From NCBI GenBank assembly GCA_035286285.1, contig JAYKJG010000348.1, positions 1-24,000 of the forward strand: 24,000 bases of DNA, given 5' to 3'. The stretch is from Prochlorothrix sp. (GTDB lineage Bacteria; Cyanobacteriota; Cyanobacteriia; Prochlorotrichales; Prochlorotrichaceae). How positions within the stretch are numbered: the stretch's first letter is position 1; each line of letters starts with the position of its first letter. This document shows positions 1 to 7,867 of the stretch, in pieces. Both the position numbers and the translations under genes were made by a program. The notes under the pieces are model-generated. The model was not told the DNA's origin, did no database searches, and saw nothing but the letters and a program-made list of their open reading frames with translations.

Positions 1-52
1 ACACTCGTAGTGCGGACTTTAGTCCGTACCGGAGCAACAGTGAAATACACCC
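1..52 (+). repeat. Right-hand end of a hairpin-array MITE-like element, truncated by the window edge
   Basis: The sequence ctcgtagtgcggactttagtccgta followed by gcaacagtgaaatacaccc matches the last hairpin unit plus terminal motif seen at 2940-2990 (cccgtagtacggactttagtccgta ... gcaaaagtgaaatgcacccc). Orientation is the same. Confidence 0.6.
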
Positions 53-1723: not shown

Positions 1724-2794
1724 TTAGCTTTCGGGCTGAGAATTGGGCTTTTTAAGCTGATGGAGCAGAAACTTGGCCAAAAATACAGTTCCAGCACCCA
1801 GAACCAGCCAGTAGGGACTGTAAACCACTAGCCAAATCGCCAAAACCACCACTCCCCGCGTTACTGCACTGAGGGAACGGGTCGATCGCTGCCATGCTAA
1901 GGACAAATCCTGTCCCCAGGAGCGCTCTAGGGGCTGGAGCACACTGACCGGCTCCGTTAGGGCAAGGTAAACCGTCGAGTAAGCAACCTGGGTTTGGAGG
2001 CTCTGTAGCTGGGCTTTAATTTGCTCGATTTGCTCTCGAATTCGGGCTAACTCCTGGGTAACCTGGAGAATTTCCCCCACATCCCCCGATCGCTCCATAA
2101 TCCCCAAGGTCAGCGCCTCAGCCTTTTCCAAATTCCGCAGCCGTGCCCCAAAATCCACCAGTTGCTCCGACACATCCTGGGCCGAAATCCGCTGATTGGT
2201 CACTTTCCCTAGGGCTGAAAACTGCTCTAGGGCCACGTCAAGCCGCTCCTGGGGCACCCGCACTTCTAAATAAGCCGAATGGGGCATATCCTCATTGAGG
2301 GGCACCTGATCCTCTAAACTCAGCACATCACCCTGGTTTTGGCGCACCTGCTGCACCAATTGACTCAAGGCTTCAGCAGTATCCTCCACTTGCAAATCTA
2401 GGTGAGCAGTTTTGATCAGTTGGGGGGCACTGCGGGGAGCACTGGGGAGGCCATTGGCTGCTGGGGTTGCTGCGTCGGGAGTCGCTGCGTTGGAGGGTGC
2501 TGCGTCGGGGGGTGCTGCTGCCGGTGCGGTAGGGGCTTGGCTCAGCAACAGGTCTTCAGACTGCTCCGGCTCAGCGAGGGTTTGCAGGGCGGGGGCTTCA
2601 GTGGCCCGATCGGCGGCAATTTCAGGGGCCGATCCGGCCTCCATCCTGGCTTTGTTGGCGGTACTGGCGCAGGCCGTGGTGACGGTCAGACCCAGGAGGC
2701 TGGCCAGCAGGAGGCGGTGCGGACGGAAACGGGCAGCGGACGATCGGGGCGGGGAAGGTGGCGCAAAGGCCGATCGGGGAGCGTGTGGAACCAT
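1724..2794 (-). CDS. DUF4349-like protein: signal or lipoprotein-like N-terminus, Ala/Pro-rich linker, coiled-coil core, C-terminal TM helices
   Basis: 356-aa ORF. The N-terminus LLASLLGLTVTTAC is lipobox-like. A low-complexity PTAPAAAPPDAAPSNAATPDAATPAA linker follows. The core LDLQVEDTAEALSQLVQQV...YLEVRVPQERLDVALEQFSALGKV...DVSEQLVDFGARLRNLEKAE...YSTVYLALTEP matches my memory of DUF4349. Two hydrophobic helices sit at the C-terminus. Confidence 0.7.
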   Translation of the reverse strand: MVPHAPRSAFAPPSPPRSSAARFRPHRLLLASLLGLTVTTACASTANKARMEAGSAPEIAADRATEAPALQTLAEPEQSEDLLLSQAPTAPAAAPPDAAPSNAATPDAATPAANGLPSAPRSAPQLIKTAHLDLQVEDTAEALSQLVQQVRQNQGDVLSLEDQVPLNEDMPHSAYLEVRVPQERLDVALEQFSALGKVTNQRISAQDVSEQLVDFGARLRNLEKAEALTLGIMERSGDVGEILQVTQELARIREQIEQIKAQLQSLQTQVAYSTVYLALTEPVSVLQPLERSWGQDLSLAWQRSTRSLSAVTRGVVVLAIWLVVYSPYWLVLGAGTVFLAKFLLHQLKKPNSQPES

Positions 2795-2833: not shown

Positions 2834-2990
2834 GGGTACATTTCACTTTGCAGCAACCCAGACCCTGACCAGTCTCAAAAGGCCCGTAGTACGGACTTTA
2901 GTCCGTAAAAGCCCGTAGTACGGACTTTAGTCCGTAAAGGCCCGTAGTACGGACTTTAGTCCGTATCTTGGCAAAAGTGAAATGCACCCC
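2834..2990 (+). mobile_element. MITE-like non-autonomous element: imperfect terminal inverted repeats enclosing 3 tandem 29-bp hairpin units
   Basis: The left end gggtacatttcactttgc (2834-2851) is the reverse complement of the right end gcaaaagtgaaatgcacccc (2971-2990), with one mismatch and one indel. Inside, gcccgtagtacggactttagtccgtaaa(a/g) starts at 2882, 2911 and 2940. Each unit holds the palindrome TACGGACT-TT-AGTCCGTA. No coding capacity and no clear target-site duplication were seen. Confidence 0.65.
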
Positions 2991-3155
2991 AGCAGAACTG
3001 GGCTAATGGAAGATTGGGCCAACTACAGCGGCCAGCGCATCCACTCGATACGTTAGTGCCCAGTATGGCGGCAATCTGGACCGATGCTCCTAGGGTTACA
3101 TTTTCTGCAACAAACCCTGCTCTACCGTCCCATGCCCCCAGCCGGTTTAAACAGC

Positions 3156-3187
3156 AAAAAGCCCAAGGCGTGAACCCTAGGCTTTTT
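3156..3187. terminator. Bidirectional rho-independent terminator downstream of tRNA-Pro
   Basis: aaaaaGCCCAAGGcgtgaaCCCTAGGCttttt is an imperfect GC-rich stem flanked by an A-run and a T-run, so either strand reads hairpin plus U-tract. It lies 23 nt after the tRNA 3' end on the minus strand. Confidence 0.6.
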
Positions 3188-3209
3188 GCGGAGTTGAAGT
3201 ATTCGCCAA

Positions 3210-3283
3210 TCGGAGCGGCGGGATTTGAACCCACGACCCCCACTACCCCAAAGTGGTGCGCTACCAAGCTGCGCTACGCCCCG
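3210..3283 (-). tRNA. tRNA-Pro (anticodon GGG)
   Basis: The reverse complement reads CGGGGCGTAGCGCAGCTTGGTAGCGCACCACTTTGGGGTAGTGGGGGTCGTGGGTTCAAATCCCGCCGCTCCGA. The 7-bp acceptor stem CGGGGCG/CGCTCCG has one G-U pair. The D-arm is GCGCAGCTTGGTAGCGC. The anticodon stem is CCACT/AGTGG with loop TTGGGGT, giving anticodon GGG. The T-arm is GTGGGTTCAAATCCCGC. The discriminator is A and CCA is not encoded. Confidence 0.93.
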
Positions 3284-3335
3284 TGACAGAATTCAATCAT
3301 AACATGGGGTGATCCGATTTGCTACAAAAATTTTT

Positions 3336-3550
3336 GGGGTGCATTTCACATTTGCCACGGGACGGACTAAAGTCCGCACTACGGGCCTTTACGGACTAAA
3401 GTCCGTACTACGAGCCTTTACGGACTAAAGTCCGTACTACGGGCTTTTACGGACTAAAGTCCGTACTACGGGCTTTTACGGACTAAAGTCCGTACTACGG
3501 GCCTTTTGAGACTGGTCAGGGGCTGGGCTGCTCCAAAGTGAAATGCACCC
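3336..3550 (-). mobile_element. Second copy of the hairpin-array MITE-like element, inverted relative to 2834-2990, with 5 hairpin units
   Basis: It starts with ggggtgcatttcacatttgcc (3336-3356). Units of acggactaaagtccgtactacgggc(c/t)ttt begin at 3362, 3391, 3420, 3449 and 3478. It ends with gagactggtcaggggctgggctgctccaaagtgaaatgcaccc (to 3550). The reverse complement aligns with the left copy, including the ctgaccagtctcaaaagg internal segment. The 58-bp length difference equals two 29-bp units. Confidence 0.65.
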
Positions 3551-3769
3551 AATTGGGGTTGGTTTCACTGGACCTTACCTGGATTTCACCGGATCTCGCT
3601 TGAATTCTGCCTGAACTTCGCTTAAACTCGCCTAGCCCTTAGTTTAGGGGTATCTCAACTCGCCCTTGATAATGTTCTGCTGCCGTGACCTAGCACCATT
3701 GCGCTGAGCCAACCCAGCCGCCCCAGTCTGGGGAATCGAGATACCCACAGGTTAACGATCTGGCTCAGC

Positions 3770-4609
3770 CTATCCCCGGTTCCAGGACACACCCTGGGCC
3801 ACTAGGATCTGTTCGGCCTTGGTTATCCAAGCAAAGGGGAAACCGGCATCACGGTAGAGGGTAGCCGGGATCTTGTCCTTAATTTCTGCATGGAACTGGG
3901 GCAGTTCGCTCCAGTGGCGGCCACATTGGACGTGGTGAGCCGTGTGGTAGCCCAGGTTGCAGGTGAAAAAGTTGTACCAGCGATCGGTGATGTTATAGGT
4001 CGCTTTGTAGGGATCTTCCTCATCCAAACCTGCATGGTGCTCATAGGTGACATAGGCCGTCATAAAGAGCAAAAATACCATGGGAAATACAAATTGGATC
4101 AGGGTATTGACCCAGTTCACGGAAGCCAGAGCCAAAAGAACGATCGCCGTTACTACCATGTTTTGGAGGAGCTTAACCCGGATTTTGGGATACTTTTCGC
4201 CCACCTTTAAGGCTTTAGGATAAGCTTGAGTTGTAACGGTCCAGGCATATTCTAGGGGGGGCATTGTCCGGCCTTTCTCGTCTTTCCAGGCGGACTCATC
4301 CTTGGTTTGGTCGAGGTAGTTAACGTGGTGACCAAAGGTATGGTGCAGAACCCAGGCTTCGCCGACAATTCCTGTTTGCAACCCCATCGCGAGTTCCAGG
4401 GCGCGATTGGCCCACTCTGGATAGAAAAACTTGAGGTGCTGGTGGTGGTGATTCCAGCAACAAATCCAACCCTTAATATTTAAGCTAATCAACATCCAAA
4501 TGATGGGGATAAGGGGGGAAGGGCTAAAGAAGAAAACCGCTAAATCGACTCCTAGCACCACAAGGATTGCTGCAATCAGATAAGCGTCTATTTTTTTTCT
4601 CAAGAACAT
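3770..4609 (-). CDS. Membrane di-iron fatty-acid desaturase/hydroxylase family protein
   Basis: Three histidine boxes are present (WNHHHQH, HHTFGHH, HTAHHV) with hydrophobic helices between them. The ORF track starts at 4675. I prefer the ATG at 4609 (MFLRKKIDAYLIAAILVV...), which sits just before the first TM helix. Confidence 0.85.
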   Translation of the reverse strand: MFLRKKIDAYLIAAILVVLGVDLAVFFFSPSPLIPIIWMLISLNIKGWICCWNHHHQHLKFFYPEWANRALELAMGLQTGIVGEAWVLHHTFGHHVNYLDQTKDESAWKDEKGRTMPPLEYAWTVTTQAYPKALKVGEKYPKIRVKLLQNMVVTAIVLLALASVNWVNTLIQFVFPMVFLLFMTAYVTYEHHAGLDEEDPYKATYNITDRWYNFFTCNLGYHTAHHVQCGRHWSELPQFHAEIKDKIPATLYRDAGFPFAWITKAEQILVAQGVSWNRG

Positions 4610-5279
4610 TGTGGACCAAAATGGATGAACAAGGTTGTCGCAATGATACGATCGGTATCCCACGATCGAGGGCAATCTAGGGATTCAGGAGCAAAATGTT
4701 CGCTCCCTGTCCTAACCCTGTGAGAGTCCCGGTCAAAAAGGAGACTGCCCCCTAGACGATCGCGAGGATTTCCGCGCTAAAGCAACATTGAGGTTGTTTT
4801 TCAAACACTGAAACTGCGTCAGATAGTGAAGCAACTTGATGTGTTCAGCGATGCCCCTAGGGACAATCCGCAGAGGGGTCAGATCGGCTCAGTTGAAAGA
4901 AAGGTCGATCGGCAAGGATAGCTCTGATTCCCAGCCATGGCAGGCCCCCGTCAAGATACAGCAAAAACACTGACAAGGGTCGGGGGAAGGTGGGAGCTAA
5001 ACAGCCCTAGGAATAATCTTTTTGTTATTGTAGGGGGTTTTGGGCTAAGGGGGGAGGGTTGGGAGCATCTCACTTTCCCAGGGTGCATCTGCAACCGTAG
5101 GACGTGACCCCCATCCCTCGGCCCCATCTACCCTTTGGGAGAAAGGGAACTCGATCTTTCCCCGTCCCTCGCCCCGGTCCCTAAGCGAAGTCGAAGGGGG
5201 GAGAGGGATTGAGGGTGAGGGCTTCTCAACCGGGGTACGCCCCTTGGGCGGGTTAAGCGCGTCAGTGGGAGCAATTCCC

Positions 5280-6283: not shown

Positions 6284-6367
6284 GCTCAGTTTAGACCGCT
6301 CAGTTTAGACCGCTCAGTTTAGACCGCTCAATTTAGACCGCTTAGTTTAGACCGCTCAGTTTACGCC
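6284..6367. repeat. Six tandem copies of a 14-bp unit GCTCAGTTTAGACC
   Basis: Copies start at 6284, 6298, 6312, 6326 (gctcaatttagacc), 6340 (gcttagtttagacc) and 6354 (gctcagtttacgcc). They lie in the divergent intergenic region between the 5313-6086 gene and pgl. Confidence 0.9.
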
Positions 6368-6496
6368 TCTGAAATACTACCCCGGAACGGCCAACCCCGT
6401 CAGGGGCCGAGGGAGGTCTTAATATTTCCAGAAATTCTGGGGCAGAGGTTGGCATTAGCCCTTAGGGTTTTAGGCAGTCCAAAGCCTTAAGCCCCT

Positions 6497-6552
6497 GCCG
6501 CTGTGGCCTTGCCGCTGTGGCCTTGCTGCTGTGACCTTGCTGCTGTGACCTT
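6497..6552. repeat. Four tandem copies of a second 14-bp unit (GCCGCTGTGGCCTT x2, GCTGCTGTGACCTT x2)
   Basis: Copies are at 6497-6510, 6511-6524, 6525-6538 and 6539-6552, immediately upstream of the preferred pgl start. The track ORF start at 6503 reads through this array (MALPLWPCCCDLAAVTFAG...), which looks non-genic. Confidence 0.85.
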
Positions 6553-7749: not shown

Positions 7750-7824
7750 GTAGGGGTCGGGTTTTCCGACCCTCTAGGGGTCGTCGGGTCTTCCGACCCT
7801 GTAGGGGTCGGGTCTTCCGACCCT
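7750..7824. repeat. Three tandem 24-27-bp units, each containing the hairpin GGGTCGG-N5-CCGACCC
   Basis: Units are gtaggggtcgggttttccgaccct (7750-7773), ctaggggtcgtcgggtcttccgaccct (7774-7800) and gtaggggtcgggtcttccgaccct (7801-7824). They lie between the zinc-ribbon gene and coaX. Confidence 0.85.
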
Positions 7825-7867
7825 CTTAGGAAATTGTCGGTTTTGGCCTCAAATTCTGACCACCCTT

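What the first reader, a model, noticed from the sequence alone, without database searches (positions are those of the whole stretch)
2834..3550. tRNA-Pro(GGG) bracketed by two inverted copies of a MITE-like element that carries a variable-number 29-bp hairpin array
Copies at 2834-2990 and 3336-3550 are reverse complements of each other. Both share terminal motifs (GGGTGCATTTCAC(A)TTTGC ... GCAAAAGTGAAATGCACCC) and an internal CTGACCAGTCTCAAAAGG segment. They differ only in the number of 29-bp units (3 versus 5).

Each unit contains the palindrome TACGGACT-TT-AGTCCGTA. Together the copies form a ~700-bp inverted-repeat structure with the tRNA and its terminator in the loop.

This raises three questions. 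Is the element family active, expanding or contracting by unit slippage? Does the tRNA neighbourhood attract insertions? Can the inverted pair mediate inversion of the tRNA segment or affect its transcription?
Basis: seen in the sequence. Interest (0 to 1): 0.6.

Follow-up and report, generated by a model that had tools for sequence, protein, structure and literature searches.

The report
Two MITE copies flanking tRNA-Pro
The tRNA-Pro gene of this Prochlorothrix genome lies between two inverted copies of a very abundant miniature transposon whose internal hairpin has been tandemly duplicated; this is real, but ordinary for a genus already known to be packed with such elements.

Summary
Window 2834-2989 (156 bp, three 29-bp units) and 3337-3550 (214 bp, five units) are inverted copies of one element and flank tRNA-Pro(GGG) at 3210-3283.

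They belong to a MITE family with about 480 loci in this 4.1-Mb Prochlorothrix MAG.
- The commonest length is 98 bp.
- The terminal repeat is GGGTGCATTTCAC.
- The target duplication is 8 bp.
- The 20 terminal bases equal the end of an ISKra4-family insertion sequence, of which only the last 198 bp are assembled. Full-length relatives in other cyanobacteria are 1.2 kb with the same terminal motif and an 8-bp duplication.

One quarter of hairpin-bearing copies carry 2-6 tandem hairpin units. The period is constant within a copy and differs between copies (21-60 bp), which indicates independent local duplications. The 29-bp array is shared with a third copy, so an array-bearing variant has itself transposed.

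Both window copies are missing at the same sites in two other Prochlorothrix genomes.

Insertions are not significantly enriched near tRNA genes (11 observed, 7.7 expected). There is no sign of a fixed inversion.

Verdict: a new member of a known kind, of low to moderate interest.

The parts
1..52 (+). Partial third copy of the same MITE (hairpin unit plus right terminal repeat), cut by the contig start
   Evidence: The sequence was read. The terminal core at 40-52 has 1 mismatch.
2834..2989 (+). MITE copy 1 (subfamily A), 156 bp, with terminal repeats at 2834-2853 and 2970-2989. It lies 39 bp upstream of the DUF4349 start codon at 2794.
   Evidence: It has no intact 8-bp target duplication (4 of 8 bases match, read from the flanks). 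It is absent at the orthologous site in G003 and G001.
2878..2965 (+). Array of three 29-bp units, each holding the hairpin TACGGACT-TT-AGTCCGTA
   Evidence: TRF gives period 29, 3.0 copies, 96% matches. Units are listed.
3154..3189 (.). Stem-loop behind the 3' end of the tRNA, terminator-like on both strands
   Evidence: Inverted repeat I11, conserved in G003. It was not called by the simple terminator scan.
3210..3283 (-). tRNA-Pro, anticodon GGG
   Evidence: ARAGORN. Rfam RF00005 at 59.7 bits.
3284..3336 (-). A 53-bp region upstream of the tRNA, conserved up to the exact MITE junction. The tRNA promoter is inferred to lie here.
   Evidence: It is nearly identical in G003 as far as the insertion point. 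The promoter hexamers are my own reading and are not tested.
3337..3550 (-). MITE copy 2 (subfamily A), 214 bp, inverted relative to copy 1, with terminal repeats at 3337-3356 and 3531-3550
   Evidence: Flanks match at 5 of 8 bases (AATTTTTG / AATTGGGG). It is absent at the orthologous site in G003 and G001.
3362..3506 (-). Array of five 29-bp units of the same kind
   Evidence: TRF gives period 29, 5.0 copies, 95% matches. Units are listed.
1724..2794 (-). Flanking gene: DUF4349 protein, first gene of the DUF4349 / protease / RimK operon
   Evidence: Pfam PF14257, E = 1.4e-52.
3770..4675 (-). Flanking gene: fatty acid desaturase. It is next to tRNA-Pro in G001 and G003 as well.
   Evidence: Pfam PF00487, E = 4.4e-34. 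Synteny.

Best explanation
[quoted passage not shown] This is a non-coding, roughly 98-bp derivative of an ISKra4-family (Mutator-superfamily DDE) insertion sequence. The transposase, supplied in trans, recognises the GGGTGCATTTCAC termini and inserts with an 8-bp target duplication into weakly AT-rich sites.

The element contains one short hairpin module. That module is prone to local tandem duplication, most likely by replication slippage or template switching at the hairpin. Individual copies therefore become small variable-number arrays.

The 29-bp array arose once in a progenitor copy. That copy then transposed to at least three sites, and the unit number has since drifted (3, 5, 3).

The bracketing of tRNA-Pro is a by-product of extreme element density, about one locus per 1.6 kb of non-coding DNA. 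It is not a functional cassette. The tRNA keeps its ancestral orientation and its upstream region.

Shown: family size, terminal repeats, target duplication, empty sites in relatives, the match to the IS end, and the diversity of arrays. Inferred: the slippage mechanism, mobilisation in trans, and the single origin of the 29-bp array.
For: Family size and structure:
- 596 terminal cores at up to 1 mismatch; 158 complete pairs under 400 bp; commonest length 98 bp (80 copies, 94% identical to consensus).
- Only k = 8 gives matching flanks: 45 of 157 perfect, 32 with one mismatch.
- Weak nATnAATn preference in the target.

Link to an insertion sequence:
- G000:C221:1-198 encodes the last 39 aa of an ISKra4-family transposase (NF033572; E = 5e-11, 1e-11).
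- It ends in 20 nt identical to the MITE-A terminus.
- Full-length relatives of that tail were checked in two other cyanobacterial genomes, L028:465-1690 and L029:474-1660. They are 1.2 kb, start GGGTGCATCTCA, have perfect 8-bp duplications, and score 225 and 260 bits against a cut-off of 205.
- The literature reports IRs of 18-39 bp and direct repeats of 8-9 bp for this superfamily (PMC3942029).

Empty sites: both window copies are absent in G003 (92-95% identical flanks) and G001.

Arrays:
- 327 hairpin loci; 82 have 2-6 units; the period is uniform within a locus and ranges from 21 to 60 bp between loci.
- The identical 29-bp unit also occurs in a truncated copy on contig C6.

Density: 480 loci, 0.63 per kb of non-coding DNA. 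tRNA flanks hold 11 loci against 7.7 expected.

Context: the genus is on record as the most MITE-rich of 183,232 genomes surveyed (PMC11602168).
Against: - No complete autonomous IS with these termini is in the assembly. Only a 198-bp end is present, and pattern scans of public genome and metagenome contigs found none.
- Neither window copy has an intact target duplication.
- Assembled copies are about 6% from consensus, and only one identical pair exists among the 98-bp copies. Present-day activity of subfamily A is therefore not shown.
- Empty sites were checked in only two relatives, and G003's contig ends 53 bp past the copy-1 site.
- Unit numbers come from a short-read MAG.
Confidence: 0.88

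Rival explanations
1. The inverted pair is a functional invertible or regulatory cassette. Recombination between the two arms flips the tRNA-Pro segment, or a cruciform or antisense structure tunes tRNA expression.
For: There are 138-nt arms at 95% complementarity only 453 bp apart. Copy 2 sits 53 bp upstream of the tRNA 5' end, next to the inferred promoter.
Against: - Both copies are absent in G003 and G001, where the tRNA has the same orientation and the same upstream 53 bp.
- The flanks do not show the swapped duplications that an inversion would leave: 3 of 8 and 3 of 8 bases match, my comparison of the flanks.
- No recombinase gene lies beside the pair.
- Another tRNA (Asp, contig C113) is flanked by two copies in direct orientation.
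- No enrichment near tRNA genes.
Confidence: 0.04
2. The hairpin units are REP/REPIN-type palindromes spread by a Y1 (RAYT) transposase. The arrays are BIME-like clusters rather than parts of a DDE-type MITE.
For: The unit is a short perfect palindrome, widespread and often clustered. The genome has two Y1_Tnp matches.
Against: - In complete copies the hairpin sits inside a unit bounded by terminal repeats with 8-bp target duplications. REPs have no such duplications.
- The better Y1 gene (C112) is flanked by a different palindrome family, GAAACCGGGGTTC-like, and not by this hairpin.
- Array units are head-to-tail duplications that include flanking linker sequence. They are not inverted REP doublets.
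Confidence: 0.04
3. The whole 2834-3550 block is a composite transposon that carried tRNA-Pro to this place.
For: Two copies of one element bracket a gene. This is the layout of a composite transposon.
Against: - tRNA-Pro lies next to the desaturase gene in G001 and G003 without any MITE, so the tRNA is ancestral here.
- The outer flanks AACCAAGA and AATTGGGG do not match.
Confidence: 0.02

Closest known systems
ISKra4-family insertion sequences, ISMich2-like short group (prokaryotic Mutator-like transposases, p-MULT 4; Guerillot et al. 2014, PMC3942029)
   Same: - The terminal repeat starts GGG and ends in C on the other strand, and the target duplication is 8 bp.
- The 20 terminal bases are identical to an IS end that follows an ISKra4-type transposase C-terminus in the same genome.
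- 1.2-kb relatives have GGGTGCATCTCA termini.
   Different: - The window elements encode nothing and are 98-214 bp long.
- The insertion preference upstream of sigma-A promoters reported for part of the ISKra4 group is not seen. The flank profile is flat beyond position 13.
- Assignment to the ISMich2 group, as opposed to the family, rests on size and duplication length only.
BOX elements of Streptococcus pneumoniae (boxA, a variable number of boxB, boxC; Croucher et al. 2011, PMC3049150)
   Same: Both are modular small interspersed repeats. The terminal modules pair with each other, and an internal hairpin-forming module is present in a variable number of tandem copies that differs between loci.
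   Different: - No sequence relationship and a different phylum.
- Here the duplicated unit has different boundaries and periods at different loci (21-60 bp). It is not a single defined boxB.
- Here a clear 8-bp target duplication and a matching IS end are seen.
Cyanobacterial MITEs such as Nezha (ISNpu3-like partner), and the MITE census that ranks Prochlorothrix hollandica PCC 9006 first (PMC11602168)
   Same: High-copy, intergenic, hairpin-forming non-autonomous elements in cyanobacteria. This genus is already reported to hold the largest number of MITEs.
   Different: - Nezha has a different partner IS family.
- Subfamily A, which carries the hairpin module, was not found in the genus representative G002 (0 hits). 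It occurs once in G001 and about 330 times in this genome. It is a lineage-specific burst.
- I could not check whether this exact family is listed in that paper's tables, because no supplements are held.

Membership tests
MITE (non-autonomous DDE transposon derivative) | Terminal inverted repeats | tested here: met
   There are 16-20-nt terminal repeats on both window copies and 158 complete pairs genome-wide.
MITE (non-autonomous DDE transposon derivative) | Target-site duplication of fixed length | tested here: met
   Only k = 8 gives matching flanks: 45 of 157 perfect, 32 with one mismatch. The two window copies themselves have decayed duplications (4 of 8 and 5 of 8).
MITE (non-autonomous DDE transposon derivative) | Small, non-coding, many interspersed copies | tested here: met
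   The commonest length is 98 bp. There are about 480 loci, 389 of them in crude non-coding DNA.
MITE (non-autonomous DDE transposon derivative) | Termini shared with an autonomous IS in the same genome | tested here: inconclusive
   A 198-bp IS end (C221) matches 20 of 20 terminal bases. The rest of the IS is not in the assembly.
MITE (non-autonomous DDE transposon derivative) | Presence/absence polymorphism at orthologous sites | tested here: met
   Both window copies are absent in G003 and G001.
ISKra4 family (as source of the termini) | Transposase matches the family model | tested here: inconclusive
   The own-genome fragment covers only 39 aa and scores 44 bits against a cut-off of 205. 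Relatives sharing 74-77% identity over that tail score 225 and 260 bits.
ISKra4 family (as source of the termini) | IRs of 18-39 bp with a conserved terminal C, and direct repeats of 8 or 9 bp (PMC3942029) | tested here: met
   The termini read GGGTGCATTTCAC...GTGAAATGCACCC and the duplication is 8 bp.
ISKra4 family (as source of the termini) | Insertion 13-17 bp upstream of sigma-A promoters (ISKra4 group only) | tested here: not met
   No positional signal beyond position 13 in 536 flanks. This feature defines only one group of the family.
REP/REPIN with RAYT | Palindromes flank a Y1 transposase gene and lack target duplications | tested here: not met
   The Y1 gene on C112 is flanked by a different palindrome. 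The elements here have 8-bp duplications.
CRISPR array | Repeats separated by unique spacers | tested here: not met
   The 29-bp period equals the unit length, so there are no spacers.
BOX-type modular repeat | Sequence homology to boxA/B/C | not tested
   Only the architecture was compared. It is treated as an analogue, not as a member.

The most novel reading that the evidence does not exclude
The hairpin module may be more than a passive passenger.
- It may make every copy a fast-changing variable-number locus, through hairpin-driven template switching.
- Copy 1, 39 bp upstream of the DUF4349 / protease / RimK operon, may supply an inward-reading promoter (TTCACT-17-TAAAGT) or a structured 5' leader.
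- The inverted pair may allow occasional flipping of the only tRNA-Pro(GGG) gene found in the assembly.

If so, unit number or orientation would tune expression of the neighbouring genes.
Probability: 0.06. Interest if true: 0.5.

Novelty: new member of a known kind. Interest (0 to 1): 0.25.

Why it matters
- It explains why this genome is so fragmented. 92 of 596 terminal cores lie within 200 bp of contig ends.
- It gives a named source family (ISKra4, Mutator superfamily) for part of the record MITE load of Prochlorothrix.
- It shows a lineage-specific burst: about 330 hairpin-bearing loci here, against 0-1 in each of five other genomes searched (three of the same genus, two of a sister genus).
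- It offers many small variable-number loci that could type strains.
- For annotation, it warns against reading the tRNA bracket as an integration or inversion module.

It does not open a new mechanism.

Tried and rejected
- **Long terminal-repeat pairs as the autonomous element.** Pairs 1-2.6 kb apart enclose housekeeping genes (CysRS, arylsulfotransferase, GCS2 and others), not a transposase.
- **Other non-MITE sequences next to a terminal core.** C223, C364, C14 and C209 are single-copy.
- **The IS-specific end.** An exact scan found nothing in public genome or metagenome contigs.
- **tblastn with the G002 ISKra4 transposase.** It found nothing in this genome. G002's IS has different termini, GGGCGCATCC.
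- **Promoter-targeted insertion.** No signal in the flanks.
- **tRNA attraction.** A first count (13 against 6.4) used a faulty hairpin pattern and split the window copies. The corrected count is 11 against 7.7, P = 0.16.
- **RAYT/REP origin.** Rejected.
- **CRISPR.** Rejected because there are no spacers.
- **Composite transposon and fixed inversion.** Rejected from synteny and flanks.
- **Rfam.** Only the tRNA was found.
- **Strain variants of the locus.** The metagenome scan found none.

Full report
**1. The observation**

tRNA-Pro(GGG) lies at 3210-3283 on the minus strand. A stem-loop lies behind its 3' end at 3154-3189.

To its left, 2834-2989 is a 156-bp unit with its own terminal inverted repeats. 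It contains three 29-bp tandem units (TRF 2878-2965, 96% matches). To its right, 3337-3550 is a 214-bp unit in the opposite orientation with five units (3362-3506, 95%). The inverted arms reach 138 nt at 95% complementarity.

The terminal 13-mer occurs six times in the window, against 0.71 expected. One of those hits is a partial third copy at the contig start (1-52).

One correction is needed. With the arrays collapsed, the two cores are only 91.8% identical. They therefore differ by more than unit number.

**2. What it is**

The window is part of contig C348 of a 4.12-Mb MAG with 487 contigs that is 86% complete. GTDB places it in the same genus as a record titled 'MAG: Prochlorothrix sp.'.

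Copy number and structure of the family:
- The terminal core GGGTGCATTTCAC, at up to one mismatch, occurs 596 times.
- 158 pairs lie closer than 400 bp.
- The commonest length is 98 bp: 80 copies, on average 94% identical to their consensus.
- Flanks match only at a length of 8 bp: 45 of 157 perfectly and 32 with one mismatch. Other lengths give about none.
- The duplicated site has a weak AT-rich pattern.

This is the signature of cut-or-copy DDE transposition, so the family is a MITE.

At least three subfamilies share the termini.
- A is 98 bp and carries the hairpin module.
- B is about 140 bp.
- C is about 100 bp.

**3. The partner element**

Pairs of termini 1-2.6 kb apart only enclose housekeeping genes. 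An ISKra4-family model (NF033572) does hit the first 118 bases of contig C221. That stretch encodes the last 39 residues of a transposase (E = 1e-11). Some 68 bp further on, the contig carries 20 bases identical to the subfamily-A terminus, followed by unique DNA.

The rest of that IS is not in the assembly. Exact scans for its end in public collections found nothing.

The same transposase tail is common in cyanobacteria, in 183 of 401 genomes sampled, and often in many copies. Two full-length relatives were checked:
- L028:465-1690 and L029:474-1660 are about 1.2 kb.
- They begin GGGTGCATCTCA.
- They have perfect 8-bp duplications.
- They score 225 and 260 bits against the family cut-off of 205.

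The paper that defined these groups reports IRs of 18-39 bp with a terminal C and direct repeats of 8-9 bp (PMC3942029). The window elements are therefore best read as non-autonomous derivatives of an ISKra4-family IS. The link to a living partner in this genome is only partly shown.

**4. The hairpin arrays**

The genome has 466 hairpins in 327 loci. Of these loci, 245 have one unit and 82 have two to six.

Within a locus the period is uniform. Between loci it ranges from 21 to 60 bp, for example 21, 24, 27, 29, 32, 40 and 51. Different boundaries at different loci mean many independent local duplications. I infer slippage or template switching at the hairpin, which folds strongly (z about -8).

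The window's 29-bp unit is also found, with the same boundaries and variants, in a 5'-truncated copy on contig C6 with three units. The array therefore probably arose once and was carried along by transposition. Unit number changed afterwards. Copy 2 reads as copy 1 plus a repeated second unit and one extra variant unit.

The closest analogue is the pneumococcal BOX element, with its variable number of boxB modules (PMC3049150). The resemblance is architectural only.

**5. Comparison with relatives**

G003 has flanks 92-95% identical to the window. There, the sequence runs from the tRNA's upstream 53 bp straight into the desaturase side without copy 2. The DUF4349 side continues past the copy-1 site into a different tandem repeat.

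G001 has flanks about 80% identical (76-82%) and also lacks both copies.

Counts of the exact terminal core are:

| Genome | Exact terminal cores |
|---|---|
| This genome (G000) | 286 |
| G002 | 44 |
| G001 | 5 |
| 38 other genomes of the class | 0-1 each |

The hairpin module gives 0 hits in G002-G005 and 1 in G001. Subfamily A is thus a burst in this lineage.

A census of 183,232 genomes already names Prochlorothrix hollandica PCC 9006 as the genome with the most MITEs (PMC11602168).

**6.

*Activity.* Past mobility and array turnover are shown. Present activity of subfamily A is not, because only one identical pair exists among the assembled 98-bp copies. Assembly does, however, select against identical copies. 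Many subfamily-B copies at contig ends are identical.

*Attraction to tRNA genes.* With about 480 loci, or 0.63 per kb of non-coding DNA, 7.7 loci are expected within 300 bp of the 39 tRNA genes. The observed number is 11 (P = 0.16). An earlier, faulty count is superseded. No promoter signal is seen in 536 flanks.

*Inversion.* The tRNA and its upstream region have the ancestral orientation. The flanks do not carry the swapped duplications that an inversion would leave. The inner segment is unique in the genome.

**7. Possible local effects (inferred only)**

Copy 1 lies 39 bp upstream of the DUF4349 start codon. The operon's transcript must therefore either start inside the element or cross it. 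A weak promoter-like match reads inward from the hairpin-side terminus. It was found in copy 2 at 3345-3373, and the same bases occur in copy 1 on the minus strand.

Copy 2 abuts the A/T tract upstream of the inferred tRNA promoter.

**8. Verdict**

This is a real, well-defined MITE pair belonging to a very large family with an ISKra4-type source and BOX-like internal module expansion. The host genus is already known for MITE abundance. It is a new member of a known kind, and interest is low to moderate.

Noticed in passing
G000:C373:16660-16925 and other contigs (own genome, outside the window): A second abundant MITE family has termini TACCAAATCCG...CGGATTTGGTA, with 354 ends in the genome. 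It has TAA/TTA three-base target duplications, as in IS5-type elements. At least 22 ends sit inside the loop of the hairpin of the family studied here. Its interior resembles subfamily B.
   Followed up: partly
G000:C112:12582-12914: A Y1 (IS200/RAYT-like) transposase gene is flanked on both sides by clusters of a different palindromic repeat (GAAACCGGGGTTC-like). This looks like a separate REP/RAYT system.
   Followed up: partly
window 3093-3117: GGGTTACATTTTCTGCAACAAACCC resembles the left end of copy 1 and is conserved in G001. It may be an old solo terminus, or it may be chance.
   Followed up: no
window 3551-3758: About 200 bp between copy 2 and the desaturase gene is absent in G003 and much shorter in G001. 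It is unique in the genome and holds a 17-nt inverted repeat at 3648-3664 / 3730-3746. A three-base loss in a T run would turn the right flank of copy 2 into a perfect target duplication.
   Followed up: partly
L014:60-170 and L009:1-53 (G003): The orthologous intergenic region of G003 carries its own tandem repeats instead of MITEs, of about 13 bp and about 16 bp. This spacer is hypervariable in the genus.
   Followed up: no
window 6284-6363, 6496-6552, 7751-7826: Further short tandem repeats occur here: 14 bp x 5.7, 14 bp x 4.1 and 24 bp x 3. They are unrelated to the MITE.
   Followed up: no
G000:C113:4210-4715: tRNA-Asp is also flanked by two subfamily-A copies, here in direct orientation.
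   Followed up: partly
G001 contig starts (C233, C303, C188 and others; L020, L023): Many G001 contigs begin with the same ISKra4-type transposase tail followed by the terminus GGGAGCATCCCACTTTCGAG. This is a related multi-copy IS that breaks that assembly.
   Followed up: partly
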